DNA of 49,251 nucleotides from Nemertoderma westbladi (Eukaryota; Animalia; Xenacoelomorpha), in NCBI GenBank assembly GCA_032718475.1, contig JAUCBJ010008669.1:1-49251 (forward strand), read 5' to 3'. A program made the position numbers and the translations under genes. This document shows, in pieces, positions 9,098-49,251 of the stretch (position 1 is its first letter; each line of letters starts with the position of its first letter). Under the pieces are notes generated by a model. That model saw only the letters and a list, made by a program, of their open reading frames with translations. It searched no databases and had not been told where the DNA came from.

Positions 9098-10271
9098 AGA
9101 AGGCTGCGGTTGGTCTATATTATTACAGTTCAAATGGAATTTTGTTTCATTTTTGTATATACAGTACAATTTTACTTAAAGTTTGTGCAATGCAGTTCAT
9201 TTGTTTAATAGGTGTTGTTGTTATTGTGAACAATAACACTAGTTTTTAGGTGGTTAAGTTGTGCTGTACTGGCTACTACTACCTTGTGCTTAATAATATT
9301 CATGTTTTACACATAAATTATCTTCTTAATTCGAACAATTGCATACCATGAGAACAATCCGGTGGTCGAATCAATGGATGACCAAATTAGTGTAGAGAAT
9401 AACGATTTACAACGTTTAAAACAAACGTTTTCTTTGCATTAAAAAAACGTATATTTCCAAGCAATTTCGAAAGAACCGACGCATGATTCACGTTAGTTAC
9501 ACATGCTAGACACACGTTTAATTCAAACGTCATAAAGAACCGGCGATTGGGTAACGTTTGTTTCATGCTATTTACACGTTTACTTCTAAACGTTTATTAC
9601 ATGCCACCCGCTTGGACAAAATAACATGAAAATTACCTATTTCTGGACGTGTCGCAAACGTTTTTTCAAACGTTTGCCATGTTCAATAAAAATGTGATAT
9701 AAACGTTAAAATAACATGCAATTGTTATCAGGGTATGCAGACTCTGAAACTGTTAGTTAGTATGCGTTCTAACACGGTAGTACGACTTATTCTTTAAGAG
9801 GGGATTGACCTTACCGCATATGGCTGCCCCAACTTACTAACGGCACTTTATCAGACAAACTCTACACACGCCGTAATCTCTCCAAACTCAACAACAGTCA
9901 GACAGCAGCTCAGCCTACAATTATCTGAACAATCTGAGCAGGGTCACACGCCTTCTGCTCAATATTAGCCTACTAGGAAATAAAACCGACAGAAATAGGT
10001 AAAATCTCAATAAAAATTCAGGGCTGCAGTCCCTGATTAAGTACTAAGACCTACCAGTATACAATAATCAAAATCGAATAATACTAAATGTACTTGTACA
10101 GCAGTACTGGTACCGGTGATGACAGTTAGGCCTACTGACCTACAGAAGTACCGGTTCAGTTTTACCAGTCACTACGGTATTTTGCAACCTTATTGCCTAC
10201 TGCAATAAGATTATAAACTGTTACTGTTCGCGCTTTTGAAGACCTTTAGCAGTTTAACCTGCCAAAATTTA

Positions 10272-11430
10272 TGTCTTTTAGTTAATTAAAACACCTTTAG
10301 CATACGACAGTATTTTATGCTAATAAACAAAACATTACCCGAAGTCAGCCCATGCGCGATCATTCACCCGATGGATCTACACCCGGGAGGCTGAATTCGG
10401 CTGCTTAAATTGTATTATTGCAGTGTAAGGTTGCAGCGTAAACTTACTGTATTATTCGATAGATCGTTAATAATTAATCTCTGACAGATATTATTGGCTT
10501 TCGGGAAATATTAACAGTTCCTTTAGGACGTGGCGCTTTATCTATTTAAACAGAACTAAGACTTATACTAAAACGCAACGATACCGCTTATGATTAAAGT
10601 ATAAAGCGTATTCTTTAGGAAATACTTTGTTACCAATCACAATCATACACACTATTCTGCCGACCGTCAGTATATTTGATCACACATAAAGAGAGCAGCA
10701 ATTGACTCATGTAGGGTCTGCTAAATAACATTAGATTTAATACACACCACATTAATATAAATCGCAATTGTTATGTATAACCGGTCTCTCTAACCTGTAG
10801 TGTATCAAGAAAATTGGGAAATTTGGGTGATTTATCCGTATTATCCAAAGAGCAATATTTCCATCAACAAATAGGTACAATTAATAACTGACAGTAAATA
10901 ACAGTACAAACAATATGATTAATAGTGAGTTAAGATTGATTAGTTAAGTAAGTGAGTAGGTTTGTTAAGTTAGGTAACAGTTTATACTTTCGATAATTTA
11001 AGCAGTTTTACTAGAGTTCTTCCCAAAAAGCCGGTGTTATGGCGAAAATGGGAACACAACAACAGAATCATATAAAATCATATGACTACTACCACTATAC
11101 GAGTATACCAAAAACTCTTATTCCCCGAAGCTCCCGTCCAACACAGAGGATGAGCAGTGAGATAGGAAATTCAGTTCAGTAGCCCTGGGATAGGTCGAAA
11201 TTAACGCCCACTCAAATTCTATTGGCCGATACGGACAGCAAGGCTAAAGCAACCTCTCTAAGCTAGTTGGCCGATTAAACTGAGCCCAGATATCTCCACA
11301 CAGCACTTCAGCCAATAAGCTGGTAGCTTGCACTATTTTAGTTATAAATCTCTTTGAGAGTATTCTAGCGACTGGGGGGGAACTGGCCAGCAAAGGCAAA
11401 CGTATCAGTTATCCCACAAAAGCTTTTACA
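10272..11430 (-). repeat. Putative 5' LTR of copy A (about 1.16 kb)
   Basis: TGT start at 11430. The candidate end ...AAGACA is followed after a short spacer by TGGCAGGTTAAAC in both copies (1159 bp here, 1165 bp at 23704-24868). The 3' boundary is tentative because there is no second LTR in the window and the PBS was not matched to a tRNA. Confidence 0.4.
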
Positions 11431-12215
11431 GAGCCCAACGGCTCCTCAGCTCATTAGAACATGCTGCTTCTAGTGTTGGTCTTTTTATTAACTCCAGAAA
11501 GACCAAAATTCTGACAGTTAACTTTGAAAGTCCTCAGCAAGTCTCTGATCGGATGAGCATAAGCTCAAAGGATGGTATGCTTGAGCATGTGGACGACTTC
11601 TGTTACCTGGGATCATGGATCCGGAAGTCAGGTGAGGACCTTCGAATACGTAAGGGAAAGGCATGGGCAGCCTTGAATAGGCTTTCCAGGATTTGGAAGT
11701 CACCGAGAATTTATCGGAAACTTAAGGTCCGATTATTTAGAGCAGCAGTAGTTCCAGTACTCCTCTACGGGAGTCCATGCTGGGCTCTAACTGCTGAGGA
11801 CACCAAATCTCTGGATGGCACATTCACAAGAATGCTACGCCGGGTTCATTGTGTCAAGTACAATGCACACATCTCCAACCAGACACTATATAACATTGGA
11901 GGTGTCTCATTGGTTCCCCCAAGCTTGACACTAGAACAAAATCGCCTCCGCTTTGCAGGACATTGCTTTCGCCGTGAGGATCAGCCAGTGCATAATCTTG
12001 TACTTTGGCAGCCTCATGGAGTGAATAAGCATGGTGGACAGCCCATGACTTTCTTGAGACGCATCTTAAAGGACACTGGCCTTAAAGATGCGGATGATCT
12101 AGCAAATGTCATGGGTGATAGGGAGTTGTGGCGGTGCAATTTTGTTGACAAGCCGGCACAGCATTCTTAAAAATGCAGCTGCAATGCAGCATGCCGATCC
12201 TAGTAGTAGTAGTAG
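11431..12215 (+). mobile_element. RTE-clade LINE, 3' portion (RT thumb and C-terminus, 3' UTR, (TAG)5 tail)
   Basis: AQRLLSSLEHAASSVGLFINSRKTK, then ORF 11553-12170 with VDDFCYLGSWI, KVRLFRAAVVPVLLYG..W and RLRFAGHCFR. A short 3' UTR ends in TAG repeats. The 5' side is cut by LTR copy A. Confidence 0.88.
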
Positions 12216-16428: not shown

Positions 16429-16962
16429 TTGTGTGAAATGTATCGAGTTTATTTGTTGCAAGAATCTTATTTTTAAAAATTAAATATATTAACTAAAGGC
16501 GCACTATTTATACGTAGTACAGTAGGCCCCTACACACAAACACAAAGATATAAACAGGAAAACTGGTGATTAAATTCGAGATAAAAAAGGCAATTTTTAG
16601 TATAAAATAAACAAGTTTTGATTTGTAGATTATAAATAAAAAACGTGCATATTTATTTATTTTATACAAAATTAAAATAGCAAGGTGCTACTAGGTTGGT
16701 AAATAATTCAATGTGGCAATTGCTATCACTTACCATAAAACATATGGTAAGTAATATGATTTATAATAAATGTTTAATTGATAATTCATCGAGGCTACTT
16801 CTAATAAATAAAATAACGAGAACAGTGTCAACATAGTTTTACCATTTTTTATTATCTTAAAATAGCATAAATATATTTTAATGATATTGGGCCTACTTAA
16901 ATTTATATAGAATATGTTAATTAGCTATTTAATTTGATTTGCATTCTTTATGTATTCGGATT

Positions 16963-18955
16963 TAGTACGGGCTCTGGCGGCGTTAAGCGCAATACCTTCG
17001 GTAAATTAACGAGACTATTATTTTTGGATGGAGGACCATGTTAGACGTCAGAACACAGTTGGCGATCGGTATAGCTAATTTGCATTCTAGAACTACAGGC
17101 CAAAAACAAGCTAGCTAGCCGACCCCTACCTAACTCTATGTTGGGTCCTCTGGTTGAATATAAATGTAATCAATTTTTTCAAATGAACATTTTTCTTATA
17201 GAGGGAAGACCGCCGATTAATTTAAATACAAATATATCGCCACTTTCATTTTTTAAATGCGATAAATTTACATGAGAACAAAATACATTCACTTTTTTTA
17301 AGAAACCAACATTTACATTAACTGCCATAAAATGTAGCTACTTTGGTTTAACACGTTCAAACATGTATCAAAATTTGCGCTAATTATTTCTGCATTCACC
17401 CATGCAACTCATTTTGGATGAGTACTAAATCCTCCTAGTCAATTAGCCCGATTATTATCGGGGAAACGATAATCAGAGAATATTCAGAGAAAGTATAGTC
17501 TCTCACATTTGGAAATATTTACTACAGTTACTAGGCAACTATATGTACTGTAGGGCTATGTTGTGTACCAGTGTAGGCGATTCCTTACATTATATTAATT
17601 GTTTTTTAATGTATTATACAAAATTCATGCGCTTATACATAAACTGAGTCACAGATCGTTGAAAATTCTTATAAAAATAATACAAAGATTGAACTGATAT
17701 TCTGAGAGTCAGAATTTATACTTTCGCTTTCAAACTTTTCTACTACAGTACAGTCCGTATCTCATTCTAGATACTGTTTCTCAAACTGGGTACCTTTTCT
17801 CTTACCTCACTCTTACTAACTCAAACCTGTCTGGTTTACTCAAACCCAACTCAAACTCGCGTAACCCCCCATTGTGCACTGCGTAGCATTCATACAACAA
17901 GCTGTCTGTGTTTAATGGTACACTCGCTTCTGTTATACTCTGCCTACGGGTAATTGATGGTCTCCTGCTGTTATAACATTCCCTAAACTTGATTTGTTTG
18001 TGTGTAATTAACTCCGGTAGACAGCGAGAATTAACTTGCAGACTCAGTGACTCAATTTATTTTTAAATTTCAGAATAAAAAATATTATATGCTAAATTAT
18101 TAAACTGAAGATTTATTAATTTTTTATTACATTTTCTGTTAGTATTACATCGTCAATGTTGTTGAATGTTTCTAATTATATGCTAAATTATTAAACTGAA
18201 GATTTATTCCCAGAATTAAAACTTTATCTACAAACAGACCGAGCCAGTGTGGTTTAGTTAACAACATACATTTAGTAAAGCCCACAAAGGAACTGCGTGA
18301 TTGACATGTCTTTTATGAGACACACGCAAGCCGGCCTGCCCAGCTTACCGGTCGGCCAAGCAGCAGACAGAGGCCCCTTCCCCATGTGGTGCCTCACTCA
18401 ACCAGAGTAATTATCCATCCCATACAGGAAGAGTAATGCTGAGTATGGCACAGTTGGAAGTCAACCTAACTCAAACCATGGCGCCAGACTCTAGTTTGAG
18501 TTAGATTGAGCTGGCTGCATCTTTCTGATTTCTCAACTCTTACCCCAGTCTTACCTACTGAAATTCTCCGTTGACTATCATTAGTAAAAGGTTTGAGAAA
18601 TGATACCCAGTTTGAGAAATAATATTCAGAATGAGATAGGGACTGTAGCTTATTATGTTGTGACAAAAATAAAAGTGGCGATATATTTGTATTTAAATTA
18701 ATCGCCGGTCTTCCCTCTATAAGAAAAATGTTCATTTGAAAAAATTGATTGCATTTATATTCAACCAGAGGGCCCAACATAGAGTTAGGTAGGGGTCGGC
18801 TAGCTAGCTTGTTTTTGGCCTGTAGTTCTAGAATGCAAATTAGCTATACCGATCACCAACTGTGTTCTGACGTCTAACATGGTCCTCCATCCAAAAATAA
18901 TAGTCTCGTTAATTTACCGAAGGTATTGCGCTTAACGCCGCCAGAGCCCGTACTA
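16963..18955. mobile_element. Academ-like non-autonomous DNA transposon (1993 bp) with about 285-bp TIRs
   Basis: Near-perfect inverted arms at about 16963-17250 and 18670-18955, starting TAGTACGGGCTCTGGCGG. A 3-bp ATT duplication flanks both sides. TAG termini with a 3-bp TSD and long TIRs fit Academ. Confidence 0.8.
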
Positions 18956-20412
18956 ATTAGTCCTCGATAGATGATTTGTTGTGCATATAATATTTTTCCA
19001 AGTTTTTGTCAGTTTTTGTCGTGACTTTTAAATACATCATTAGCATCCTACACAGAATAATACATGTACTGTTAAGTCTTTACAATCGGACCTCCAGCCA
19101 TAATACATTACACCTTTACAATACGGCGCGGCGCCTCAGCAGACCTGCTATCTGCAATCATAAGGTACCTAAAAATATATAAACTGCGCTGTCTTGTAAG
19201 TTGGTGAAGTCACACTACAAGATTATAATTGTATTTAATTAATAACCTACTCTATAATAATGTATTTTTGTGCTAGGTAATTCCAATGTTAATCAACTAT
19301 GCTGTAGCCCCTTTATTATTTTGAATGTTTATCTGGACATATTAATCAATTGGTGTGCACCTGTCAATTGTAATTAATTATCATTGACGCTTTACAAATA
19401 TATATTAATTATTATGTCAATAAGATAAATAAATAATTAACAATACCAATTTTTGGCTATACTACATTAGGCTAAGAGTGTTGCTCCATGTGGTTCTGAT
19501 TGAACATGCTACTGTATCAATAAAATTAGCCTATAAAAACTTATGGGTTTGTCATTGCCAGCAATGCAAGCCATTTAAGTAGTACTGTATTTGCATTCGT
19601 TTGGGTATAAAGCGCTAAAATAAATATGCGGCCTTTAAGGATTATAATGAAATAAAACCTATTGAAAATAACCTAGATTTGGTTCAGTTACCGGGATAAT
19701 ACTAGTTCCGGCTAACCCAATACAGATTGCCTATTCAGCCATTGAATGAAACACGATTAGCGGTTAAAATGCTACTACAGTACAGTAACTGTATGTAGTA
19801 GTTCTAGTCGTTCAATCTGAGGTCAAATTGGCTGAAACAATTTTTTTCCAGTCACCGAGATGAGGTCCACAAAAGTTATCGGTTAATTTTTAGTTTAGCG
19901 TTTTAATGAAAATTATTTAATATTAATTAATATTTTTACAAAATTTTAACAAATTTTCTGAAAAATTGGCTGTATAAACAGAAATATAAAAATTACAGCC
20001 GATAACTTTTAAAAAAACCCTTTCAATGATCTCGTTTTTTGATTTCGCTGATTCCATTTGCGATATCAGTTTTAATGATTGGTAGAACCTAGTCGGTCTG
20101 TCTGTCGGTTGTCTGTCAGTTTTACAATTTGGCGGACAGACAGTCATACGAAAAATCAGCGATAACTCGAGAACTGAAAGAGGTTGCGGTTTTCATATTT
20201 GAAATCCCCATTAAATTCTGCTCTAGATTAAATAAAAACAAATATTTGAAATTTGAACATGAGGAGAGGGGGGGGGGGGGGGGGGGGGGGGTAGGACCTT
20301 TTATCGTATGTTTATCGCTACCTCCGCCCATGTTAGGCGTTCCCTCTATTATAGTGCCCTATGGGGAAGATCTATGTGCCTCGATCCAAGGATCAGGTCA
20401 TTCTTGGGTTAA

Positions 20413-23703: not shown

Positions 23704-26700
23704 TGTAAAGGCTTTTGCGGATATAACTAGTAATTTTCCCCGCAAAGTACTCTGTAGGTGTTTTAGCGGACATAAAAAGCCGTTTTCTTACTGTGTAGGT
23801 GTTTTAGTGGACATAAAAAGCCATTTTTCTGTATGTGTAATTTAGCGGACATAACAAGCCATTTTATGCCGCAATACGCCAAAATACTCTTAATACAGTG
23901 TAGTTCAAATGACGACATCTATCAGCTGATATGTCGATGTGGAGCTTTTTGGCTTTCTTTGTTCGGCTCACTCAACCAATCAGAGCGATTTTCATTTTAT
24001 CTTGTACAGAAGCCTATGGAAGATCGCGCAATGCATTATGGTCTTTGTTTACCTTTTTTCCTGAGCCCAGAACATCGGCTTTGGAATTATTCTGTGTTTC
24101 AGACTTTAGCCAAACATTAGAACAGCTTTGATTATAGAAACGTATAACTGTTATCAAACCTGTCATATCTCATACAAACTGGTCAGACTCATATTATACT
24201 ATACATACCTTTCACCGCATTATTTTTACTGCTTTTACTGTCGGTTATTAATTGTTATCAGTTGATGGATATGTTGCTATATTTAGAGAATATCGATAAA
24301 GAATCATAAAACCCCAATCTTCTTGATATACTGAAGGTTAGAGAGACCGGTTACATATAGCAATTGCGACTTACATTATAGTGGTTTTGGAGTGAATTTA
24401 ATGCTCTTTCATACCTATTTCATACCATACCTACATGTGTCGGTTGCTATTCTCCTTATATATGATCAAATTTAGTGAAGGTCGGCAGATCAGAGTGCAG
24501 CAGTGTGCGGTAGTGTGCATGAGTGTGACAGATAACAAAGCATTTCCTAAAGAATGCGCTTTATACGAAAATCATTAGCCATCCCGTTGTGTTTAGTGTA
24601 AGTCATAACTCTGTTTACATACTTAGAGCGCCACGTCCTAAAGGAACTGTTAATATTTCCCGAAAGTGAATAATATTTGTCAGAGATTATATATTAACTA
24701 TCAATCGAATAGTACAGTAAGTCTACACCGCAATAAGGTCAGAGCTTCCGAATCCAGTCTCCCTTAACCGTGGGTGAATGGTCGCGCATAGGCTGGCTTC
24801 GGCTAATGTAACCTTGTGTGTATCAAATACTTGTTATAAGCTAAAGTCGATTTATAAACTAGAAGACACCTAAAATTGGCAGGTTAAACTGCTAAAGGTC
24901 TAAAAGCGCGAACAATAACAGTTATTCTTTCTTTATTGCAACGTAGGCAATAAAGGTAAAAGTACCGGTCGACCGGTACCCTGTAGGCCTAACTACCTAA
25001 ACACCCGAACCGGTACTTACAGCAGTACAGGTACTAGTATTATTTCGATTGTGATATATTGTATATTGTAGGCTGTTAGAGGATTAGGGATTGATCACCC
25101 CTTATTCCTTTGTATGGTCTACTTATTTCTGTCAGTTTTATTTATTTGTAGGTTAATATTGAGCAGAAGGCATGTAAGCCTGCTCAGATTGTACAAGTAA
25201 TTTGTAGGCTGGATTGTTGTCTGATTGTTGTTAAGTCTGAAGGGATTGCAGTGTGTGTAGAGTGTATGTCCGATAAAGTACTAGTTAGGAACGTGGGGGC
25301 ATCCATTGCTGTAAGGTAGATCCCCCCCGAAAGAATAAGTCGTGCTACTCGGTTAGAACGCATACTAACTAACCATTTCGGAGTCTGCACATACTGTAGT
25401 TTATTTAGGCTTGATAGTAGTCTGCCAGCATTTGGTTTGTATTTTGTTTGTGTAGTCTGTACGGGTAGTGTAATATTTATTATTCAGAGTTTATGCGATT
25501 ATTCGCAACATACACCACCCTAAGTTCATTCCTACAGTAATTGTGCTTGTTATCCATACCGTTATAGTTAAATTAACCCCGGTACTACATCAGGGCTGTT
25601 TGGCGTAGGTAAAGACTAGTGATTTTATGCTCTAGTCACTCCGACAGATACCGTGGTTCTTTTAGCTGTACAAGTATTTTTAACTGCTGGTTATTTGTTG
25701 TATAAGTACTTGTACCTAATTTAGGGTTTAGTGTACAGTGCTTTCCGAAGGTAATTAGTGTGTAGGCAGTATATTTGTGTTGTAAAGTGGTTAATAGGCA
25801 CGTTAGCTATAGTACGCTGCGGTAATTAACTTCTAGGTAGGAACACTCTGGGTACATAACATAGTACTTATAGAGCTGTAAAGCTAGAGACTATAAGTCG
25901 TCAGACGGTGGTATTTTCTTATCTAGACAACGCAATATATTTACTACTGCTTTATTATTTTCAAATACCGTAGTATCCTGTCCGTTGTAATAACCAGAAA
26001 TTCTAACCCCTTGTTAGGCTGGTTTGTAGATTTCTTGTAAAATTAACCCTAAAAATTTGTACGTATAATTATTGTGTTTATTTAGAGATTATAATCTCAC
26101 CCTGTAATTGTACCTAATTTGTAGTAATAAGTAACTTAGGCAAGTAGAATTATTTGTTTTAGTGTCCAATAAGTAGCACTACACTGAGAGCGTACAGCTT
26201 CTTTGTAGTGACTCCTTACCAGAAATAATAACATTTATTTCAAATATTGTAACAAAACCCATTAAACGGGTATATATATATTATAAATCAACTCAAACCA
26301 ATTTATAAAATAGTAGGCCTGTCATATAACAATTAGGTCTTAATATCAGTTGGACTACTGCTTAAATAACGGTAATAAAGTAAAGTAAAGTAACTAAGTA
26401 ACCCTAAAATTCAGAAATTCAATTATTCTAAAATAATTGACGTACCGGTATTTACGATAGGCTTATTATATTTATTTCTATAAATTTAAGCTGAAATTTT
26501 ATACCGGTATTCTGTAATTAATTCTAGTCTATAATTATACTTATATATTATAAGTGTAAGCTGTATACCGGTATTCACGTTAGGCTTATTATATATCTAT
26601 ATATTTGCGCTGAAATTATATACCGGTATTCTGTGACGAACCCTAATATTCGATCCGTAATAATACTTATATATACTATAAGTGTATACCAGTATTCTAA

Positions 26701-26760
26701 TATATTGTATATATATCACGTTACATAGAGTAACGATATCGGTAATTAATTACTAGGCTA
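23704..26760 (+). mobile_element. LTR-type retroelement copy B: 5' LTR and leader only, no coding region
   Basis: Inverted homologue of copy A. It starts TGTAAAGG, and similarity ends roughly 75 bp before the position of copy A's ATG. Confidence 0.75.
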
Positions 26761-27304
26761 ACAGTTGATACTTAATTAATTCTATTAAATTCTATTAAAT
26801 CTATTAATTCTATAACCATCACCTTATGGCTTCTGGGACAACCGATAATCCATGTATAATAGCGATTGGAGGTTAAACAGTAGTCCTACAGTATTTAAAA
26901 TAATGACTCAGTATTATGCATAATCTTCATCTGTACATATTACATTGCATAGAGACTAAACTTTTCATTGGAATTATATTTCCGACATACTGTAGAATTA
27001 TTAATACACGCTGCCTTTCAGGAAGCCAATTGTAGATTACACGGGGGTGACAAAATGTTTTTGTACCATCACTATACCATCAATACCATCACTTCCCAAT
27101 GGATAGTGAGATTCAAAATTCCCGCATTGTACTGTAAACCGCCAATCATGAGCGTTTGTTTCCGTTAATTTGTTTACGATTTATTTTATTTATATAGGTT
27201 ATGATATACTGCAGTACTGTAATAAACGATCGCCGCCCTACTTACACAGTCACCGTCCAGACCAGCAGACCCTTATGACACCTATCGCTACACAATAGTT
27301 TTAC

Positions 27305-27658: not shown

Positions 27659-30600
27659 ATGTCAATGAATATTGCTGCTGAAGAGAACGGGTTCGATTCC
27701 ATCCGTCACTATTTCGATGACAACGAATGGGAAGTGATGAGCATCTTCGATAAATGTCGATCGTTGGCATTGAAGGAGCAGTTCGAAATGCTTACGTCTT
27801 TAGGTTTTAACGAACTCAGAGCCAAGCCAATAGATCCTCCAGACTTTATGAAAAGAAAGACCATTAGGATGTCTGGTAGGAAAGTTATTCCTGAAGATGA
27901 GATTATTGGAAACAATGATGAACCGATGAATATGATAGTTGAGGGGGAAGAAGAAAATGGATCACTCTCAATGGATCATTCCATGTTTGATGATGTTACT
28001 GAGGACTGGAGGATATTGCCGTGGATTTCTGTGAGGATGATTCTGACGAGAAATCCGTGGCCTGTACCAACTCGGATCTTATTACAGAAGGAACACGACG
28101 GTTTCGCCGCCAGGTCCATATGAATGGTACAGCGACAGCATCGAGCGTAGCGAGGGAAGTAGCAGCAGTCCAAGTGGAGCGGATCACGGTAGTTGAGAAC
28201 GGCCATATTAATTAAATAATTTAGTTTTTATATATTTCCCGAGGGATATTATTTATTAGGAGCCCGCTTGACAGCGGGATACTTACTGTAAGAATCTCAG
28301 GGATACTTTCTGTAAAAATCTCAGGATACATTACACTGACTGACATACTGACTGACATACTGACTGATAATTATCTAGGTTAAGGCACTTCCTGCCTGGC
28401 GATTTTGATGAAATTTTGCAAGTACATTGCTTTGGTGGTTCATAATCGCGTTACAAAATTTCAGATCGATTCTATGTGTGGTATTTGATATATTTAGTTT
28501 TTTGACATTGTTTTGTCGCGAAATTAAAAGCAATGGCAAAATAACAGCTGGTGTTCATGATGAAATATGGCTTAATATGTTATACACAGTCATAGAAAAA
28601 CGTGTTGGTTGCCAAGTCACATAAGCTGTTGGTTTCTAATGTATTACCCCATAAGCTGATTGCTCTCCCAGTGCTTCCTAAGGGTATATCTACAATAAGG
28701 TTACTCACTCTGCTATGTTGAGGGGTGGATCAGGATAATTAATTTTAGTTACACAAAGCAGTGTGTTGTGTCCTATTGCAGTCGATACTCACTGTGGATT
28801 GTAAAATGTTTTGTCTGGGAAGAGATATTCCGCTTGACGACGGGGTAATACCTATAGAAGGAAACTAAATTTGTTATTTGGCTCTATTCGTTGTTATTTA
28901 TCTGGTTGTGCATCATGGGCATTTTTTATAAATATTCGGTAATCGTATCTTATATCTTGTAAACATGCTTGATAATGAAATTATTTGCTTCATATTATAT
29001 TTTTGTTAGTGGTAGCTAAGTTGCATTTTTTATTATGTGGGGCGAGCCACAAAGTCAGCTAGCCTCACGCCTTGCAGTTTAGACAATTTTAGTTTACTTA
29101 CTGCTGACTGACAGTTCTTTGTAATAGTCTTGGCTAGGATTTTTCCCCCGGGCTCCTTCCAGCCAGCTTGCTGGCTTTCTAGTCTCAACATAAAGTTTAC
29201 CCGTTGCAAATTCGCGCTGCTATTGAACAACACCATCAAAATACCTTGAAATATTTATTGAGGGAAAAATTATTGGGGGGAAAATCTCCAGTAATGGCGA
29301 ATCTTAATAACTCGATTGTGGTTAAGTAAGTAAAGTAAAAATATATATATCACAATATCAATTATGCAATATCATGTATGGATTTGGCGGGATATTAATT
29401 CGCCAAGATGGGATTTGCGTCCAGCCCCCCCTGTCTCCAAGTTAACTAGTAAATTCCGACTGCTGGCCTATCCTATAGTTTAGGTCGCTTAACCACATTA
29501 ATTATGGCCTTTTGAATGAATTCGTTTATTGTTTTTGTAGAATAGCCCTTCTCTATAATCTGGTTATTTCCCTACATTGTTAAAGCATATCATACACTGT
29601 TTTTTTGTAAGAAAGTACAACCTAAACTGCTTCTTTCCTTAAACCTCAATTATTGGTAATTTCAAAATTATAAAATAAATGTAAAATAAATTTATGTTTT
29701 CACATTTTTTGGGGTGTGGGTTTAATACATTCAATGTGTACATGTATTTATTTTTGGGAAGATACATTTCTTTTGGAGAAAATTTGTATTTATTTTTGGG
29801 AGTTTGTCATTCATTTCGGTATGGATCATTGGTTTTGGGGATAAAAAAATTGTTATTTGGTGATGAACAATAAATTTTGGTGTTGGGATAATGTTTTGGT
29901 GTGACCCGAAAATAATATATTTTATTTGGTTCCAGATATTGTTTTGTGCTGACATTGTTTAAATTGATGAGATATACTATAATTGTTTTTGTGAAATTTA
30001 CTGTAATAGCCTAAAATAACCTACTTGCAATCTCAGTGTGGGAGATTACACTAACTTTATTTATACCGCATGATATGTACCAAGTTTGAAACTTGTTGTA
30101 GGAGGGATTTACATTTGGTATATTTTCCATCCTAAATAAGTTCCCCAAAATAACGCCCATAACTCGAGATATGCGAATATTCATTCAATCAATCAATATA
30201 TCTATCTGAATAAGATTACAATATGTGGCAATTTTAATACCCAATTAAAAACATCTATAAAATTGGCAATTAATTAAAAATGGCCGCTTTCAGCCACAGA
30301 AGTGAATTTAGTGACTTTATCTCCGACCGATATTATCAGGGAAACAGGAGGTTTTAATTCGCCATCGTTTATCGTTCCAACTCATTACATCGAGGAAATA
30401 AAATAACAGCTAGAATGTATCTGATCCAGCGATCTATCTGATCCAGCGATTGATCTGTTGGAGGATGTTGATGACGTCAGTTCCGGTAGACACTCGGTTA
30501 CTGTTGCTCCAGCTGTACTGTGTGCCGAGGATTTGGTTAACGATAAACTCCCTAACAGTTTGGGACGTGTTGATTCCGAAGCTGAAAGGACTTCTTGTGG

Positions 30601-31943
30601 TGGAAGTCCGACCCCAGCAGCTGAGCGAGAAGAAATGGCTAAAGTGGTTTCGGGTTCTTCTACAGTTGAGTCGCATTTAAATATCATCGTCACTCCTAAA
30701 TCGACGGCTTCTTTCGAACCCCGATGTGGTTTACGTCCCAGAAAGGAGGTCCCCGATTACGCCAACCGCAACTGCCCTATGAAAGCCTTAAACCAGTTTA
30801 TATTCTGCGACCTTTGCAGAGAGGAATATAATGAATTACAGTGTCCGGTAAACATGGGGAGTTTAACTTCATTTCGAATATCGAAACAACTCTTGGTGGA
30901 AGAAACTGGGCCAGCAGAACAATTCCGTTGTGTTTGGAGATAAAGAAATCTCTAATTAAAAATAAAGGGGTGTTTACCAAGGTCGACCTGAATCCGGGAA
31001 CATTATTTGGTCCTCATGACGGAGAGAGGAAACCAGGTAAACCTAAACCCGGGAAGTCTGATGGTTACAGCTGGTTGATGTTGGACGATCAGGGTAGATA
31101 CTTTACTATCAGCGGGAGACAGGAGTTCAAGTCGAATTGGATGCGCTTTGTAAACTGCGCCAAATGGGAACAGGAACAAACCCTTTGTGGGTTCCAGTTG
31201 GGAGAGGATATATATTATCGAGTCTGTAAACCAGTTGAAGCCGGTATGGAACTCCTTACTTGGTACAGAACTAGTTACGCAGAAGAAATGGGCTTAATTA
31301 ATAAACATCCAAAGGATAAGAAATTGGGGATGAAAGTTTTGGAAGACGGGATGATTCTGTGTACCGGATGTGGCAGATACAATTCTGATAATCAGGAGGC
31401 AATTCTTAGACACCAAAGTAGTCTAGGTGGATGTGCTGAGAGAAAGAGATTGGATTTAGCTCATGATATAGATTTACCTAAATTCCCTTGTGAACATTGC
31501 GATGTCGTCTACATGGTGGAATCTTTTCTTGTTTCCCATTTAAAATGGAAACACAATGAACCCGGCTCTACTCCAACAGGTTCGGGTTCCAACATTCCTA
31601 CTGGTCCCAAGAAACGTTCCAGTTTAGATAAACCTGTTGATAGTTTGGGATTAAGTTCCTGTGGGAAAGTGTTCCGATTTAAATGCCAACTAATGGAACA
31701 CGAAAGGGTTCACTCTGGTGAAAAACCTTACAGTTGCAATGTTTGTAGTAAATCATTCAACCAGAGTTCCAATCTAACAGCGCACCAACGCATCCACACA
31801 GGAGATAAACCCTACAGTTGCAACATCTGTAGTAAATCATTCACCAAGAGTTCCGATCTAACAACCCACCAACGTATCCACACAGGAGATAAACCCTACA
31901 GTTGCAACGTCTGTAGTAAATCATTTTACCAACAGTTCCAATC
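27659..31943 (+). pseudogene. PRDM9: PRDM9-type histone methyltransferase pseudogene (aKRAB, SSXRD, zinc knuckle, PR/SET, C2H2 array)
   Basis: FDSIRHYFDDNEWEVMSIFDKCRSLALKEQFEMLTSLGF...PPDFM matches the SSX/PRDM9 KRAB pattern. RCGLRPRKEVPDY is SSXRD-like. FCDLC..CP/KHG is the knuckle. GVF..FGPHDG..YSW..SNWMRFVNCA..EQEQ..IYYR..ELLTWY..Y is PR/SET. These are followed by post-SET finger CEHC..HLKWKH and TG(E/D)KPY-linked fingers. Lesions: frameshifts near 28000 and 30849, a 2.2-kb insertion, a 17-bp duplication, an in-frame TAG, and LINE truncation. Confidence 0.88.
28213..30404. mobile_element. Composite insertion splitting the PRDM9-like gene (HINE-like element with nested repeats)
   Basis: No GT donor or pyrimidine-rich acceptor at the junctions. 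It has (ACTG)n-like microsatellite at about 28335-28366 and TATTTCCCGAG / CGAGGAAATA near the ends. It contains copies of repeats seen at about 21690-21815, 8810-8867 and 12532-12556. Confidence 0.6.
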
Positions 31944-32157
31944 ATCTTGTACTTTGGCAGCCTCATGGAGTGAATAAGCATGGTGGACAGCCCATGACTT
32001 TCTTGAGACGCATCTGGCATTGAAGATTCGGATGATCTAGCAAATGTCATGGGTGATAGGGATAGTTGTGGCGGTGCAATTTTGTCGATAAGCCGGCACA
32101 GCATTCTAAAAAATGCAGCTGCAATGCAGCTGCAATGCAGCATGCCGATCCTAGTAG
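31944..32157 (+). mobile_element. 3' end of the same RTE LINE family, fused to the PRDM9-like zinc-finger array
   Basis: Nearly identical to 11995-12206 (ATCTTGTACTTTGGCAGCCTCATGGAGTG...CATGCCGATCCTAGTAG). Confidence 0.92.
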
Positions 32158-32347
32158 TGGTGCTTTATGTGGTAGGCCTACCATTGTAGGCTGCTTGTCA
32201 GTCTGTCAGTGTGGTACTGCTACTGCATTATCTGAGTATTGGTACGTGCGGTAGTGTAGGGAGTTCTGCAATTGCCTGAGTGATGTCTGAATTGCGATAT
32301 TGCAACTATATCATGTACTGGTCCGGTACCTTAATCTTATTAAACAT

Positions 32348-35499: not shown

Positions 35500-37990
35500 A
35501 GCGTTAGAGAGAGTATAGACCTTCAGACAGGGCAGGGTCCATGGTCCCAAGGATGGAGGCCGTGTTGCCGATGAGAATGGCTATTTGGAGGCATTGTAGG
35601 AGGAACTGATGGGATCGCGGCTCCTGAGTGGTGGCAAGGAGACAAGTACCAATCACCTTAATGAATGCCGCTGTCTCAGGGCCAGGGCGACCAAGGGTCT
35701 CAAAGGCAACAGGGTAGGAGTACCCTCGGTCAATCAGTTCCTGGTACTTCCGATTCTTTAGGGATTCTGCCTCCTCAATGACACGGCCTCAAGCCAACAC
35801 AGTCTGGGCGAGGTGGCTGGGCGTGAGCGGGTCCGCAATGGTTGCGTCCCAGACCATTGTGCGCCCGTGGCTCTATGGGATGAGCATAACCCTGTCAACG
35901 TGCTTCCCTTCTCCCAGGCACATGCCTGGTGGTTCGAGCGGGGCTGGGACCCCACAGCTAGCAAGCGACCGGCGCATGATGTCATTGACCATCGAGTGAC
36001 GTGGATGGCAGCCAGCACTCCTCATGCAAGACAGGCCATGAAGCCCATCTGCAGAGACATCCTTAAGACAGCATGCACAACTGTGGGGCTTGGTGACCTT
36101 ACAGCTAAGGCGGATGGCGACGGATATCCTGAACTGGGTGTCAGTTAGCTTAAGGCCCAGCGAGCTGACTGGGATGGCATCGAGCCAGCAACTGGATACC
36201 GGATCCTCGATGGAGTTGAGGCGGACAATTTCCGAAGTTGACACACCATCTCGTCTAGAGCCACCAGGTGTTGTCAGGGAGTGCGGTACGCCAGGATGTT
36301 AGGGCGTTAGAAGAAATAGAGGGGGGACCAGAGGCCAGGAAGAGGCGCCCCGTAAGAGTAGTGCAGGCTGCCGCTGCAGCCAGGAAGGCAGATGGTGCGA
36401 GCAGCACTGTAGAACTCAACCCGAGGCCTCCCATCTGGGTGGGAGACAGGACTGAGCCCAAGCGGTATCATTAATGCGGACATTCGCAAGGTCCTGGAGT
36501 GCGCTCCAAAGGGTCGAATCATACTCCTCCAGGAGGTCACTGTGCTGGAAACACAGCACAGTCTGGAGGAAGTATGTCAACCGGGGTATGGTGAACGAGT
36601 TCCGAAGAAGGAAGTAGGCATGGTGGGAGTCGAGGAGGGGAAGGCTTTGTCACGGAGACAGGAGGTGGTGGCGCAGTCCCCGATTGGTGCTCCAAGCATC
36701 ATGAGTTTCCCCAGAGGAGGTGTCAGGATGCCCCTGCAAACACTGCCAAACTCTCCGATGATGGAAGTGCGGGACTCATTGGACTCAGCTCCAAGGAAGA
36801 ACAGCTTGCTCTTTACTGGGTTTATGGTGAGCCCATACTTCCTCCCCTTTCAATGACTTTGCGCAGTTCCCCTAGCAAAAGAGATTCCATTCATCCAGAA
36901 AACCACACATGAACCCCGACTGAAGGGACTGAATGGTGGGATTCACAGTGTCACCAAACAGTCGGGGTCCATCAGTGTCACCTTGCTGGACTCCCTCGTC
37001 CCTCCTCCCGAGAGGAGGGTCTCCTCCCCATAGACAAGGAAACTGGTGGCACAATATGCCGCCAGCATGTAGTTATACACACTGGGGTAGTTCTGGTGCA
37101 CTGTTTCCAGGAGGGTGTCTTGCCAAACTGAGTTAAAGGCATTCGAGAAGGCAATCTTTAGGAGAACCATACCCAGATGAACCATGGAGTAGGAGAACCA
37201 TGTGAAGAGTGCCCTTGCAGTGTAGGCAGCTGCTTCCGCTCTATTCTTGGTCCCTATCCCTAGTTGTACATCCCCGTACGAATGTGATTGTTCAGCCTTG
37301 GTAAGGAACCACACGAACTTCGAGCATAGGCGGTGGAAAGAAAATCCCACGGCAATCGGACGCACCCCGCCCCCAGATTTACTGAAGGCGAACAGATTCG
37401 CACCGAAGAACGTGGGGCAGATGGGTAGGGGAACCTTACCAGCAACAACCACATCGACGAAGCGGTACAGGTTGGCAGTGAGGTGGATAGCCGCCTCCCC
37501 ATTAGTGTGGCCTATCAGTTTGTGGAGGATCAGAGGGCGCATACCATCAGGACTACCAGCACTGCCGGACGGGAAAGTCGCAATGAGCTCCACATGGTGA
37601 TGTTGGTTCTGTTACAAGGGGAGGAGGATTGCGTCTGTCGGAAGGGCAGAAAGGGTCTTTAGTCCTTAAGAGTGTTGAGGGTCTCTGGCGTGTTGGGGGC
37701 CATTGAGTCCCTCGAAGCCACCAACCGGATGGCCCCCATTCATGCCCCCATCCTCAATCTTCTCCACCACTGCAGCAGCGAGTCGTATCGTCTCCTCATG
37801 TTCTTTGGCTTGATGGGTTCTGGGTTGGGGTTTGGCAGTGGTACATGATAGTGGATCGCTACGGAACTCTTGAATCCTTCAGTTGCTTTGGGACACGAGC
37901 ATCTTTGTTTGACACCACCCACCCCTTTTTGGGGCGGGGATGCAGTGATGAAAGCGGAGGAGGAGTTTTATCCACTCTGTGGCACCCTCC
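35500..37990 (-). mobile_element. Degenerate CRE-like non-LTR retrotransposon (RT plus restriction-like endonuclease)
   Basis: Across frames: GSAGSPDGMRP, GGGVRPIAVG, QLGIG..AEAA, FSNAFNSV, GVQQGD..GP, GGLGL, WLDAIPVSSLGLKL, CAC..GLHGLSC, WDAT and PVAFETLG. There are many frameshifts. Confidence 0.85.
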
Positions 37991-44598: not shown

Positions 44599-44853
44599 CA
44601 TTTGCTTGCCGCTATCACTATAACCTGCGAAGTTTTACTGAAGATTTAATAATGGATCAACATATTAATTTATTGAAAGAGAAATCATCTGGTGCCGGTA
44701 TAATTATAAAGAGAGAACCAACAGACTCCGCCCCCTATTATCTTGATGTTAAACAAGAAAACTGTGTTTACGGATCATCTCCCATCGAAGATCACAACAA
44801 TTTGTTCGGTAGAGTAAATGTTGTCCCTGTACTAGAGTACTGTACTGTAGTTC
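44599..44853 (+). pseudogene. Tandem partial duplicate of the 5' part of the zinc-finger gene
   Basis: MDQH.NLL.EK.SGAGIIIK...VPVL is duplicated. CATTTGCTTG..ACTATAACCTGC marks both unit starts (44599 and 44854). No fingers follow. Confidence 0.85.
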
Positions 44854-45043
44854 CATTTGCTTGTCACTGTCACTATAACCTGCTCTTTTCCGTTACAGCG
44901 ACATGCAACTTTTGAATGCCCTTGTATCATCTATTTATTATATTTATATCGCATGGAATTTATAATTGTGAAGAGTTTGACATACCTAAAACTACTGCCA
45001 CCTGTATTTAATGTATTGATTAAGTTTTACTGAAGATTGAATA

Positions 45044-46309
45044 ATGGATCAACATACTAATTTATTGATAGAAAAATCTGGTGCCGGTATAATTATAAAG
45101 AAAGAACAAACAGACTGTATAATTATAAAGAGAGAACCATCAGACTCCACCCCCTATTATCTTGATGTTAAAAAAGAGAACTGCGTTTACGGTTCATCTC
45201 CCATCGAAGATCACAACAATTTGTTCGGTGCAGCAGTAGATATTGTCCCTGTACTAGATGACGAAGATATTTCTTATGAACCATCTGGAGGTTATTTTAT
45301 TGTTGAAAAACGGGAAAACGACAGCCCAGACTGTTGGTATGGTAGGCCTATTGGAACTGAAGGTACTGAAGCGACAATCAGTTGTGCAACAACAGATTCC
45401 GGTAGTTCTAATGAAACTGTTGGGGAGTTGGTATCTTCTTCAGATACCAGTTCCTGTTTGCATTGTAATGAATTATTTAATGACGAAGGAAATTTAGAGA
45501 GACATATAGAATCCGTTCATAAAGACGTAGAGAATAAGAATAAATGCGATTATTGTGAGAAACTGTTTAAAAGAAAAACTTATGTAAAGTACCATGTTGA
45601 CGATATCCATAAAGGTATAAAATATAAGTGCGATTATTGTAATAAAGAATTCAGCTATCAAACAAATCTAAACACCCACATTAATTTTACCCACAAAGGT
45701 ATCATCAAGTATAGCTGCTCTGATTGTGGAAAATCATTTGCTAGAAAAGACGTACTAAAACAACATGTCGACTCTATACATAAAGATATCAAACATAAGT
45801 GCGATTATTGTAATAAAGAATTCAGCTATCAAAAGAGTCTAAACACCCACGTTAACTTTGCCCACAAAGGTATCATCAAGTATAGCTGCTCCGATTGTGG
45901 AAAATTATTTGCTACAAAAGCCGAACTAAAACAACATGTCGACTCTATACATAAAGATATCACACATAAGTGCGGTTATTGTAATAAAGAATTCAGCCGG
46001 GAAAGGAATCTAAACACCCATGTGAACTACTTTCATAAAGATATCAAGTACAACTGTTTCGATTGCGAAAAATCATTTGCTACTAAAGCCGTACTAAAAC
46101 AACATGTCGAATCGGTTCACAAAGATATAAAACATAAATGTGATTATTGTAATAAAGAATTCAGTTACAAAGACGTACTAAAACAACATGTCGACTCTAT
46201 ACATAAAGATATCAAACATAAGTGCGGTTATTGTAATAAAGAATTCAGTCGGCAAGACTGCCTAAACACACATATCAATTCTGTTCATAAATCTAAAATC
46301 TACCGGTAA
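45044..46309 (+). CDS. C2H2 zinc-finger protein, 421 aa, 10 fingers
   Basis: Uninterrupted ORF with ten CxxC-x12-H-x4-H units. The acidic N-terminus has IKKE, IKRE and VKKE motifs. An upstream acceptor-like tcttttccgttacag lies at about 44884-44898. Confidence 0.92.
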   Translation: MDQHTNLLIEKSGAGIIIKKEQTDCIIIKREPSDSTPYYLDVKKENCVYGSSPIEDHNNLFGAAVDIVPVLDDEDISYEPSGGYFIVEKRENDSPDCWYGRPIGTEGTEATISCATTDSGSSNETVGELVSSSDTSSCLHCNELFNDEGNLERHIESVHKDVENKNKCDYCEKLFKRKTYVKYHVDDIHKGIKYKCDYCNKEFSYQTNLNTHINFTHKGIIKYSCSDCGKSFARKDVLKQHVDSIHKDIKHKCDYCNKEFSYQKSLNTHVNFAHKGIIKYSCSDCGKLFATKAELKQHVDSIHKDITHKCGYCNKEFSRERNLNTHVNYFHKDIKYNCFDCEKSFATKAVLKQHVESVHKDIKHKCDYCNKEFSYKDVLKQHVDSIHKDIKHKCGYCNKEFSRQDCLNTHINSVHKSKIYR

Positions 46310-47450: not shown

Positions 47451-48048
47451 ACCAACATTTGGGGGGGGGCAACACAAGCCCCGAAGCCACATAGAAAGGA
47501 AGGTTAGAGGTCAAACCACCTCGGAGGGAACGCAGCTAGTACAGGCTAGCAGCAGAGGGGAAACACTCCCAGAGAGTGCCAGGGTGACAAGTAGCATATT
47601 AGCCAATAGAGGGGAGGGAAGCACGTGATAGGGGACAGGAAAGCATCCACTGGGTAGGAGGCCAAGGTAGAGTAGGAGGTGAAGCAATATTAGTGTATCA
47701 ATCATATATTATGTCAGATTCTTGGATTGGTACATCAGTTGGTTATTCAGTTTAGTGCAGACCAGTAAAAATTATTCACCGTCATTGGCTGTCATCGGCA
47801 CTATCATACCGGTATCCATTACATCTGTATTTCTGCCGTATTAATTGTGCTATCATTTCTAACATCAAGAAACAACATCAAACTCTTATTGTTTTTCTCC
47901 AATGGCCTCGGCCAAGCTGTTAGCACCATCCCAGAACAGAACGGTGACGCTTATAACAATTTACCTGGTCGGGATCTCTGATCCCGTCACAGTGAATAAT
48001 TGCCAACTGCTAAAACTGTGACTGCCAGACTTAGTAAAAGAGTAAAAG

Positions 48049-49251
48049 ATGAGCGAAGGAGAGCCCCAATTATCTGAGGGAGAGAGAACACTGCCGCGGA
48101 CCCCGGACGATACCAACCAAATGATCCATAAGGCCGCGACGAGACGGTATCGGTCAGTGATGGCAGATTCGCCGATCCGGTAGCCCAAGCGGAGGGCGGC
48201 CGTCAACCACGAGGGAGGGACGAGTCGACGCACGACGGCGGTCGGAGTACCGAAGTCGCCAGCCAGCCACAGGCCGAGGGCAACGGACGGCCCACCGGAA
48301 CGGCGACGGTGGGGCCGCCGGTACGACGCCGAACCAGGAGAGGTGGAGGAGTCGGCGAAGAGGACGTCGGGACGAGTGATCGGCTACGACGGGCCTACAA
48401 CGCCACCAAGAAGCTACTGAAGGAGGCCAGAGAGGGAGGAAAGGTAGATCAGCCTAAGTTACACCAAAGGCTAGGTGAGTCGAACAAACATTTCCGGTAT
48501 TTAGTCCTTTTTGGACAGGGAGAACTGGCGAGTGAGAGAGCGAGGGGGGTTGCCACCGAACTATTTGAACTGTGGTGATCCAGGATTATGGAGCCTGAAG
48601 TAGTGTACGTAGGGCCTTACTTAGTGGATGCTAGGGGAATTAAGTTAGTGGGTTGGGCGGTTCCGCACTAGGGTGAACCAGAGGTTAACCCCGAGGATTC
48701 GGTCTCGTCGGTTAGCGAGAACCCCAAAAAGCGGGGGAAAGTTAGTAGGACATAGAGGCGACGGGAGTCCGTCGCGACAGATAAGTCCGCTACATCCTCC
48801 GCGAAAGCAAGAAGGGTGTTGGAGATAGATCTGGCGTGTCAACTAGACATGGTGGTGCTAGACCAGAAAGAGTTAGAGAGGCAGCTGGACGAGGGAACTG
48901 CGTTATTAGAGAAAGAAAGAGTGTTAGCGAGGGAATGTAGAGAGAAAGCTGAGATGGTGGCGAGAAACTGTAGAGAGCGGGAAGAGAAATGAGCGCGAGG
49001 AGCGAGAGGCGAGAATAGAGAACGAGCGCAAAGAGCGAGAAGCGAGAGAGGTAGCGAGGGCAGAGAGAGAAACAAACGAGCGTAGAGAGCGAGAGGCGAG
49101 AGAGATAGAAATAGCGAACCAAAGTTTGCGAGAGGATAGAGAGAGAGAGAGAGAGCGGGAAAGCGTATGCGGGATGATATGCATACCCGGCTGAGGGGGC
49201 TTATGCAATATGAGGCTAAGCAAAATCGCCGATTAGAACTGGTGCAGTTGG
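48049..49251 (+). mobile_element. Degenerate gag/ORF1-like region with a GA-rich coiled-coil segment, runs off the right edge
   Basis: GC-rich, strand-biased, with stops and frameshifts (…KELERQLDEGTALLEKERVLARECREKAE…). It is preceded by a possible short TGT…ACA repeat (47712-47958) and TGG. Confidence 0.4.

What the first reader, a model, noticed from the sequence alone, without database searches (positions are those of the whole stretch)
27659..31943. Complete-architecture PRDM9 (aKRAB, SSXRD, knuckle, PR/SET, ZnF) in an invertebrate-looking genome
Seen: all PRDM9 modules occur in the canonical order, spread over four ORF fragments. Established: this full combination is what directs meiotic recombination hotspots in mammals and some other vertebrates, and its KRAB is the ancestor of KRAB-ZFP domains. 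Full-length invertebrate homologues are known but little studied functionally. Inference: this disabled copy implies a functional parent or a PRDM9 family in this genome, and possibly PRDM9-directed recombination outside vertebrates.
Basis: partly seen in the sequence, partly recalled or inferred. Interest (0 to 1): 0.85.

Follow-up and report, generated by a model that had tools for sequence, protein, structure and literature searches.

The report
Dead copy of multiplied PRDM9 family
This is a broken copy of PRDM9, the gene that places recombination hotspots in mammals, in a likely invertebrate animal whose genome holds many related copies that lack the usual introns inside the main domains and whose reads keep the enzyme's key residues, so some copies are probably still active, though a role in recombination is untested.

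Summary
Partly confirmed. aKRAB, zinc knuckle, PR/SET and C2H2 fingers are real and in PRDM9 order (custom aKRAB HMM E 8e-11; PR best match PRDM9, 92 bits). The SSXRD fails Pfam and a custom HMM: only its basic half remains, so 'complete architecture' is overstated. The copy is a pseudogene: frameshifts, two stops, His for a catalytic Tyr, and a LINE end cutting the finger array. Contigs from three DNA runs (two samples) show many paralogs; one class has about 12-20 times the depth of this locus (a rough measure). Paralog contigs lack the knuckle frameshift and one stop, read Tyr at the catalytic site, and differ in aKRAB mostly silently (12 of 17 listed codons). KRAB and PR/SET-to-finger regions are unsplit by introns, unlike the roughly 10-exon canonical gene, which suggests a retro-derived lineage later duplicated as DNA. 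No intact full-length paralog, expression or recombination role could be shown. Full-length invertebrate PRDM9 and paralog birth-and-death are already in print (cnidarians, termites, salmonids), and this scan noted PRDM9-derived families in other genomes. The intron-poor, amplified, SET-keeping family is the new part.

The parts
27659..28188 (+). Predicted first coding exon (ATG to predicted donor); an AG just before the ATG leaves room for an upstream exon. Holds a frameshift between 27928 and 28009 and a 10-nt deletion at 28077 relative to paralog contigs
   Evidence: Frames; X5 record 25 has 66 nt where the window has 80, and 10 extra nt at 28077 (also in an X2 contig); ATG context. Exon limits are inferred
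27692..27862 (+). Ancestral KRAB (A box plus PxxFM B part) in one reading frame, no intron
   Evidence: Custom HMM E 8e-11; Pfam negative; a paralog contig spans 27691-27928 without gaps
28189..30299 (+). Predicted single intron (GT..AG, phase 1 at both ends) with imperfect inverted-repeat ends; both ends are shared with paralog contigs; high-copy repeats inserted at about 28250-29180 and 29370-29550
   Evidence: Phase bookkeeping (other GT/AG pairs also fit); inverted-end score reached by 10 of 5000 random pairs; joints 28235 to 29183 and depth table. Splicing not shown
30300..30721 (+). Linker at start of predicted second exon, with stop codons at 30404 (TAA) and 30422 (TGA)
   Evidence: paralog loose ends behind 30420 read an open codon at the TGA; paralog state at 30404 not among the rows shown
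30722..30796 (+). SSXRD remnant: basic half in place, acidic tail absent
   Evidence: Fails Pfam and custom HMM; aligned by position; paralog letters at 30785-30796 give no acidic tail either
30806..30855 (+). Zinc knuckle, broken by 2 extra bases at 30850
   Evidence: paralog contigs lack the 2 bases (X2 761.5 of 765.2 depth, X3 399.5 of 751.1); an X1 contig 30465-30928 matches the window with 1 difference and 0 gaps
30853..31299 (+). Pre-SET and PR/SET domain, no intron; His at 31015 in place of the first catalytic Tyr, the other two Tyr kept; Arg at 31267 in the WYG motif
   Evidence: paralog contigs read Tyr and Gly. Mapping of the three Tyr to Y276/Y341/Y357 is recalled, laid on the alignment
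31360..31554 (+). Two proximal fingers after PR/SET (one degenerate, one C2H2), same ORF as PR/SET
   Evidence: Pattern scan
31660..31943 (+). Start of the 84-bp C2H2 array: one finger lacking its first Cys, two whole fingers, one cut finger with one extra T
   Evidence: the two whole units differ at 9 of 84 nt and 5 of 28 residues, 3 of them at helix positions -1, +3, +6
31941..32161 (+). 3' end of a LINE that cuts the finger array; no target-site duplication seen and no rest of the array in the window
   Evidence: Matches 11992-12210, the end of a LINE-like ORF; very high depth and loose ends at 31944; tblastn finds no continuation

Best explanation
The locus is a broken PRDM9-family gene, one of many related copies in this genome whose KRAB and PR/SET-to-finger regions have no introns, likely because an ancestor was copied back from mRNA and then duplicated as DNA; some sister copies are probably still active and would bind DNA through the 84-bp finger array and methylate histone H3 nearby. 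Shown: domain order, lesions, unsplit domains, paralog contigs with the open or conserved state at several lesions. Inferred: the single intron, the retro-origin, the copy number (about 6-20 loci from depth), and that any one paralog is whole. From established PRDM9 biology: H3K4/H3K36 trimethylation by a PR/SET with three tyrosines. For the living members I put about 45% on a derived gene-regulatory or repeat-marking role, 35% on hotspot placement and 20% on none being whole.
For: Membership; PRDM9 HMM 155.6 bits (147-157 in 10 size-matched draws) against PRDM11 HMM 108. Decay of this copy; of 24 exon-2 codons where most paralog depth differs from the window, 5 are silent and 19 are not, as expected without selection (20% silent), and several put the window off the conserved residue (Tyr, WYG Gly). 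Family: 146, 205 and 246 contigs laid on 30270-31720 in X1, X2, X3, of which 122, 179 and 212 are under 99% alike; one aKRAB contig class has depth 604, 1888, 553 against 39-54, 74-143, 16-44 for contigs matching this locus (ratios 12-21), with the same 20 listed differences in all four runs. Constraint: those 20 differences give 12 silent of 17 codons against 19% expected (p 5e-6; p 0.002 against 33%). Intron loss is shared: gap-free paralog contigs span 27691-27928, 30852-31083, 31048-31246, 31312-31518, whereas the papers give KRAB on 2 exons, SET on 2-3 and 10 exons in all. DNA-level duplication: paralogs share both intron ends and a 23-nt upstream piece.
Against: No contig spans the gene, so linkage of the high-depth aKRAB class to an intact PR/SET and finger array is not shown. 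The tool warns that depth is no copy number; if the locus contigs are single haplotypes the ratios halve. The tables showed only 40 of 354 and 40 of 144 difference rows, and I used 20 and 26 of them. The knuckle frameshift is confirmed only in X1, which may be the assembly's source sample. The PR tree puts the window on a long branch (1.36) and cannot reject a grouping with PRDM11 (p-AU 0.31) or with the vertebrate-type PRDM9 clade (0.40); no other PRDM subfamily was in the tree. Several GT/AG pairs fit the intron. X5 holds the aKRAB class but only one diverged 165-nt piece of exon 2, unexplained.
Confidence: 0.7

Rival explanations
1. The living paralogs are true hotspot-placing PRDM9s: several loci with different finger arrays mark H3K4me3 plus H3K36me3 in meiotic cells and draw double-strand breaks.
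For: Paralog contigs keep the first catalytic Tyr and show no listed change at the other two (104 rows unseen); aKRAB under purifying selection; remaining fingers are 89% alike and 3 of 5 residue differences are at DNA-contact positions; salmon PRDM9 has a weakly predicted SSXRD yet directs hotspots; several full-length paralogs coexist in 10 of 28 cnidarians.
Against: SSXRD fails every profile, and my HMM does detect the salmon motif (P0032); Baker et al. tie fast finger evolution to KRAB plus SSXRD; in salmonids 6-14 copies include mostly one full-length one; only two whole fingers are left to judge; an ordinary intron-rich PRDM9 may exist elsewhere in the genome and could not be searched for.
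Confidence: 0.3
2. The copies are passengers of a mobile element, satellite or segmental duplication; the silent-site excess dates from a functional ancestor and no whole copy works today.
For: A single gap-free contig class at 12-20 times local depth means near-identical recent copies; depth is uneven along exon 2 and some paralog contigs break off or skip parts (tables 5, 7, 8); the window is rich in repeats.
Against: No transposase, helicase or element ends flank the gene in the window; the high-depth class keeps open frames and conserved residues wherever rows were shown.
Confidence: 0.2
3. The breaks are assembly errors and the gene is intact.
For: Two indels sit in short A or T runs (30850, about 31925); the 30850 indel was seen only in X1.
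Against: An X1 contig matches across 30850 with 0 gaps; an X2 contig (other sample and study) matches 31186-31341 with 0 differences, including the WYG-breaking change; two stops, a 10-nt deletion, His for Tyr and a LINE end are not homopolymer errors.
Confidence: 0.03
4. The PR/SET belongs to PRDM11 or another subfamily and the N-terminal likeness is chance.
For: PRDM11 is second by score (82 bits); a FastTree run put the window near PRDM11 with support 0.22; AU test does not reject it; Pfam misses KRAB and SSXRD.
Against: HMM scores 147-157 against 108; aKRAB E 8e-11; PRDM11 is described as vertebrate-specific and without fingers; the IQ-TREE run puts the window in a 96-supported set with the invertebrate PRDM9s.
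Confidence: 0.04

Closest known systems
Canonical full-length PRDM9 (human, mouse, salmonid alpha1; PDB 4C1Q, 4IJD, 6NM4)
   Same: aKRAB, knuckle, PR/SET, proximal finger and 84-bp finger array in the same order; best PR/SET match
   Different: This copy is broken; SSXRD lacks its acidic tail; domains are not split by introns (canonical: 10 exons, KRAB 2, SET 3; PMC11703093 passages); PR only about 41-46% identical to any database protein
Cnidarian full-length and truncated Prdm9 paralogs (bioRxiv 10.64898/2026.09.07.749791)
   Same: Invertebrate PRDM9 with recent duplications and birth-and-death; Y276 substitutions occur
   Different: At most four full-length paralogs per species, KRAB and SET each on two exons; here a class with 12-20 times local depth and unsplit domains
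Salmonid Prdm9 paralog sets (PMC11703093)
   Same: 6-14 copies per genome, many with frameshifts or stops
   Different: Those arose by genome and tandem duplication and keep the exon structure; usually one is full-length
Coelacanth aKRAB zinc-finger genes (PMC8835667)
   Same: Multi-copy family with aKRAB, usually on a single exon
   Different: They have neither SSXRD nor PR/SET and exceed 200 copies; this family keeps PR/SET with its tyrosines
PRDM11
   Same: Knuckle plus PR/SET, second-best score
   Different: No KRAB, no fingers, vertebrate-specific; lower HMM score

Membership tests
PRDM7/9 subfamily | PR/SET closest to PRDM9 among PRDM subfamilies | tested here: met
   Best of 15 solved PR sequences; HMM 147-157 vs PRDM11 108 bits
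PRDM7/9 subfamily | PR/SET groups with PRDM7/9 in a tree | tested here: inconclusive
   Long branch; inside a 96-supported set with invertebrate PRDM9s, but PRDM11 grouping not rejected (p-AU 0.31); no other subfamilies in the tree
PRDM7/9 subfamily | N-terminal ancestral KRAB | tested here: met
   Custom HMM E 8e-11, next best window peptide E above 1; Pfam KRAB negative
Full-length (canonical) PRDM9 | SSXRD motif before the knuckle | tested here: not met
   Pfam and custom HMM negative; only the basic half in place; paralog letters also lack the acidic tail
Full-length (canonical) PRDM9 | Zinc knuckle before PR/SET | tested here: met
   CxxC..C..H across the frameshift
Full-length (canonical) PRDM9 | Uninterrupted reading frame | tested here: not met
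   Frameshifts, two stops, LINE end in this copy; whole paralogs could not be assembled
Full-length (canonical) PRDM9 | Three catalytic tyrosines | tested here: not met
   This copy has His at the first; most paralog depth reads Tyr there (X1 231 of 413, X2 6139 of 6139, X3 1135 of 1292)
Hotspot-directing PRDM9 | Homogenised 84-bp finger array varying at DNA-contact residues | tested here: inconclusive
   Two whole fingers only; 3 of 5 differences at -1, +3, +6; no genome-wide rank possible
Hotspot-directing PRDM9 | Meiotic expression, H3K4me3+H3K36me3 marks, breaks at its motifs, ZCWPW1/2 present | not testable with these tools
   No genome held; no RNA holder listed
Processed pseudogene (fresh retrocopy) | No introns, no shared flanks, target-site duplication or poly(A) | tested here: not met
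   Intron-like stretch and an upstream piece are shared with paralogs; the intron loss is family-wide, not private

The most novel reading that the evidence does not exclude
This animal has amplified an intron-poor, retro-derived PRDM9 lineage into roughly a dozen near-identical loci that keep aKRAB, an active PR/SET and fast-changing finger arrays but have shed the SSXRD acidic tail: either the largest multi-locus hotspot system known, or an enzyme-keeping intermediate on the path from PRDM9 to KRAB zinc-finger-type regulator families, reached independently in an invertebrate.
Probability: 0.25. Interest if true: 0.7.

Novelty: new variant of a known kind. Interest (0 to 1): 0.42.

Why it matters
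A dead invertebrate PRDM9 alone is ordinary. The family behind it matters more. PRDM9 is dosage-sensitive and usually works from one full-length locus; the cnidarian preprint's maximum is four. If several of these copies are whole, the species is a natural test of how many PRDM9 loci can share hotspot placement, of whether SSXRD is needed, and of the idea that single-exon aKRAB finger families arise from retro-copied PRDM9.

Tried and rejected
Whole-genome search: no genome held, so no tblastn for paralogs, an intron-rich parent or ZCWPW1/2. Expression: no RNA holder listed; this is no evidence either way. Word-indexed protein searches: PR region gave 1 hit of 62 candidates, aKRAB piece 0 of 52. 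The all-representatives search gave 1615 hits, none near-identical, so no protein of this family was retrieved. PDB search with the aKRAB piece: 0 hits. Metagenome contigs: 176 pattern matches, 0 confirmed. SSXRD HMM: no window hit. Trees: 151-row FastTree and 54-row IQ-TREE both leave the position unsure; the phylum could not be read from them. I first read the 2.1-kb stretch as a fresh transposon insertion and rejected that because paralog contigs share both ends. I first read the 17-bp repeat at 30418-30450 as a frameshifting duplication and rejected that because paralog letters there have the same length. Lack of exon-2 cover in X5 is not used as evidence. Earlier scan notes: none near this place or like this sequence. 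Paper searches returned mostly off-topic lists. No structure or complex prediction was run; it would not decide anything here.
Full report
What was checked. The window is 49,251 bases with no N, mostly 33-42% GC with a few richer repeat stretches, and many repeats. No whole genome is held, so paralogs could be seen only through contigs of public runs. The phylum is not determined; the PR domain is about 41-46% identical to its best database matches and sits with invertebrate PRDM9s in the IQ-TREE run, on a long branch, so 'invertebrate' is likely, not shown.

Domains. Pfam finds PRDM2_PR (110 bits), SET and C2H2 fingers in ORF 30835-31977 and nothing in the three upstream pieces. I built KRAB and SSXRD HMMs from database proteins only, seeded by Pfam-validated regions and iterated on the 161 proteins then held. 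The KRAB model hits 27692-27862 at E 3.5e-7 in the first round and 8e-11 in the last, best of 1547 six-frame peptides, next best E above 0.4. The SSXRD model never hits and scores -0.3 bits on the relevant peptide alone. A combined SSXRD+knuckle model aligns the basic half and the knuckle (17.5 bits), but the acidic tail present in the 38 references printed is absent. Paralog letters at 30785-30796 give no acidic tail either, so the weak SSXRD is a family trait rather than decay of this copy. Weak SSXRD predictions are known in salmon and eel PRDM9 (PMC5519329 section 23), but my model does detect the salmon motif.

Subfamily. Among 15 solved PR-domain sequences the order is PRDM9 (92, 90, 90 bits), PRDM11 (82), then 63 or less. 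An HMM from 32 KRAB+SSXRD-bearing proteins scores the knuckle+PR read-through 155.6 bits (147-157 in 10 draws of 16), an HMM from 16 PRDM11 proteins 108. Trees are weak: branch length 1.36, and neither a PRDM11 grouping (p-AU 0.31) nor a vertebrate-type grouping (0.40) is rejected. The 54-row tree used 32 KRAB+SSXRD rows, 8 of the 16 PRDM11 rows and 13 others; no other subfamily was available. Membership rests on scores plus the aKRAB.

Lesions. In order: a frameshift between 27928 and 28009, a 10-nt deletion at 28077, stops at 30404 and 30422, 2 extra bases at 30850, His for the first catalytic Tyr at 31015, Arg in the WYG motif at 31267, a first array finger without its first Cys, one extra T near 31925, and a LINE 3' end from about 31944 that matches 11992-12210. 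The Y276/Y341/Y357 labels are from the papers; their placing on the alignment is recalled. An X1 contig (30465-30928, 1 difference, 0 gaps) carries the 30850 indel, though X1 may be the source sample. An X2 contig from another study matches 31186-31341 exactly, so the locus and its WYG change are real in a second animal.

The family. Six runs of one species label were listed, three holding the stretch (shares 0.70, 0.39, 0.19; two studies). I laid four (X1, X2, X3, X5). On 30270-31720, 146, 205, 246 and 1 contigs were laid; 122, 179, 212 and 1 are under 99% alike, in several classes of different depth. Over the aKRAB one class has depth 604, 1888, 553 and 29, with the same 20 listed differences in all four runs, against 39-54 (X1), 74-143 (X2) and 16-44 (X3) for contigs matching this locus. 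The ratios are 12, 13-21 and 13-14. The tool warns that depth is no copy number, and the figures halve if the locus contigs are one haplotype; I read them as roughly 6-20 loci. Paralog contigs lack the 2 bases at 30850, have an open codon at 30422, and read Tyr at 31015 and Gly at 31267. The 20 listed aKRAB differences (of 34 in the X2 contig; 40 of 354 rows were shown) fall in 17 codons, 12 silent, against 19% expected (p 5e-6). Of the 40 exon-2 rows shown (of 144) I kept the 26 carried by most depth in at least two of X1-X3 and dropped 14; they fall in 24 codons, 5 silent, which fits neutral decay of the window copy. The two sets cover different regions and comparisons, so their contrast (Fisher p 0.003) is only descriptive. 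No contig spans the gene, so a whole paralog is not shown.

Gene structure. aKRAB A and B are in one frame, and SSXRD remnant, knuckle, PR/SET and fingers are contiguous. Gap-free paralog contigs span 27691-27928, 30852-31083, 31048-31246 and 31312-31518. In print, KRAB lies on two exons, SET on two (cnidarians) or three (salmonids), fingers on their own exon, ten exons in all. Carrying the paralog's frame through X5 record 25 makes the GT at 28189 phase 1, matching the AG at 30298-30299; other GT/AG pairs also fit, so the intron is a prediction. Its two ends are shared with paralogs at high depth, and joints 28235 to 29183 show that about 0.95 kb of repeat came later. Its ends form an imperfect inverted repeat (score reached by 10 of 5000 random pairs), a hint that it came from an old DNA element. 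So this copy is a DNA-level duplicate; the intron loss is older and most simply explained by reverse transcription of an mRNA (inference). An unchecked scan note describes an ordinary intron-bearing gene in the same genome, which suggests that intron loss is not genome-wide.

How it would work. This copy makes no product beyond a short aKRAB peptide, if transcribed at all. Whole paralogs would, by established PRDM9 biology, bind motifs through the finger array and trimethylate H3K4 and H3K36. The two whole fingers differ at 9 of 84 nt and 5 of 28 residues, three at -1, +3 and +6, which looks like PRDM9 but is too little to rank. With SSXRD eroded and many copies, I think a derived regulatory or repeat-marking role (45%) slightly more likely than hotspot placement (35%); 20% that none is whole.

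What is in print. bioRxiv 10.64898/2026.09.07.749791 (parts 1-4 of 7 of the text and passages): full-length Prdm9 in all 28 cnidarians, one inferred, up to four per species. PMC12047536 (passages): full-length PRDM9 in two termites. PMC8835667 (passages): aKRAB in protostomes; PRDM9 usually has few paralogs; coelacanth single-exon aKRAB finger genes without SET. PMC4760075 (passages): PRDM11 vertebrate-specific. PMC5519329 (passages and section 23). PMC11703093 (passages). No supplements were read; their gene tables could hold similar cases. In eight searches (terms around PRDM9 with invertebrate, SSXRD, retrogene, intronless, expansion, copies, single exon) I saw no report of an intron-poor, amplified PRDM9 family that keeps PR/SET; two of these searches were off-topic and the library lacks most subscription papers. 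Unchecked scan notes report complete PRDM9 and PRDM9-derived SET-less families in other genomes (108 notes hold the word, 8 shown).

Verdict. The amplified, intron-poor, SET-keeping family is a new variant worth a genome-wide look. Interest 0.42.

Noticed in passing
window 45041-46309 (+): Single ORF of 422 aa with 10 C2H2 fingers (Pfam) arranged as a 171-bp two-finger repeat, 85% matches; 30-40% identical to the PRDM9-type fingers, so not their continuation; upstream pieces duplicated at 44687-44810 and 45076-45229.
   Followed up: partly
window 28189-28215 and 30270-30299: The ends of the predicted intron form an imperfect inverted repeat that begins at the GT donor and ends next to the AG acceptor, as a transposon-derived intron would; no target-site duplication seen.
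   Followed up: partly
window 5368-7553 and 7829-8481: 21-bp minisatellite of about 106 copies with long open frames, next to a 41-bp array of 16 copies at 98% matches.
   Followed up: no
window 1778-3315 / 25200-26778 and 9736-10914 / 24219-25389: Dispersed repeats of 1.6 kb (85%) and 1.2 kb (73%) in inverted orientation.
   Followed up: no
window 16962-18956: 2-kb stretch bounded by 292-bp inverted repeats, 98% alike: likely a young non-autonomous DNA element.
   Followed up: no
window 11358-12210 (+): 3' part of a very high-copy LINE-like element (DUF6451 hit); the same family cuts the PRDM9 finger array.
   Followed up: partly
window 35873-37611 (-): Two broken ORFs that look by recall like reverse transcriptase and endonuclease parts of a non-LTR retrotransposon; no Pfam hit.
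   Followed up: no
window 1-1728 (-) and 47961-49251: A 576-aa open-ended, coiled-coil-like ORF and GC-rich ORFs at the other end, no Pfam hit in the two scanned and no likeness to each other; possibly retroelement Gag-like genes.
   Followed up: partly
run X5 on window 27691-28220 and 30852-31016: X5 holds the high-depth aKRAB class on a 1514-nt contig but only one diverged piece of exon 2; low coverage, filtering or a real difference between animals cannot be told apart.
   Followed up: no
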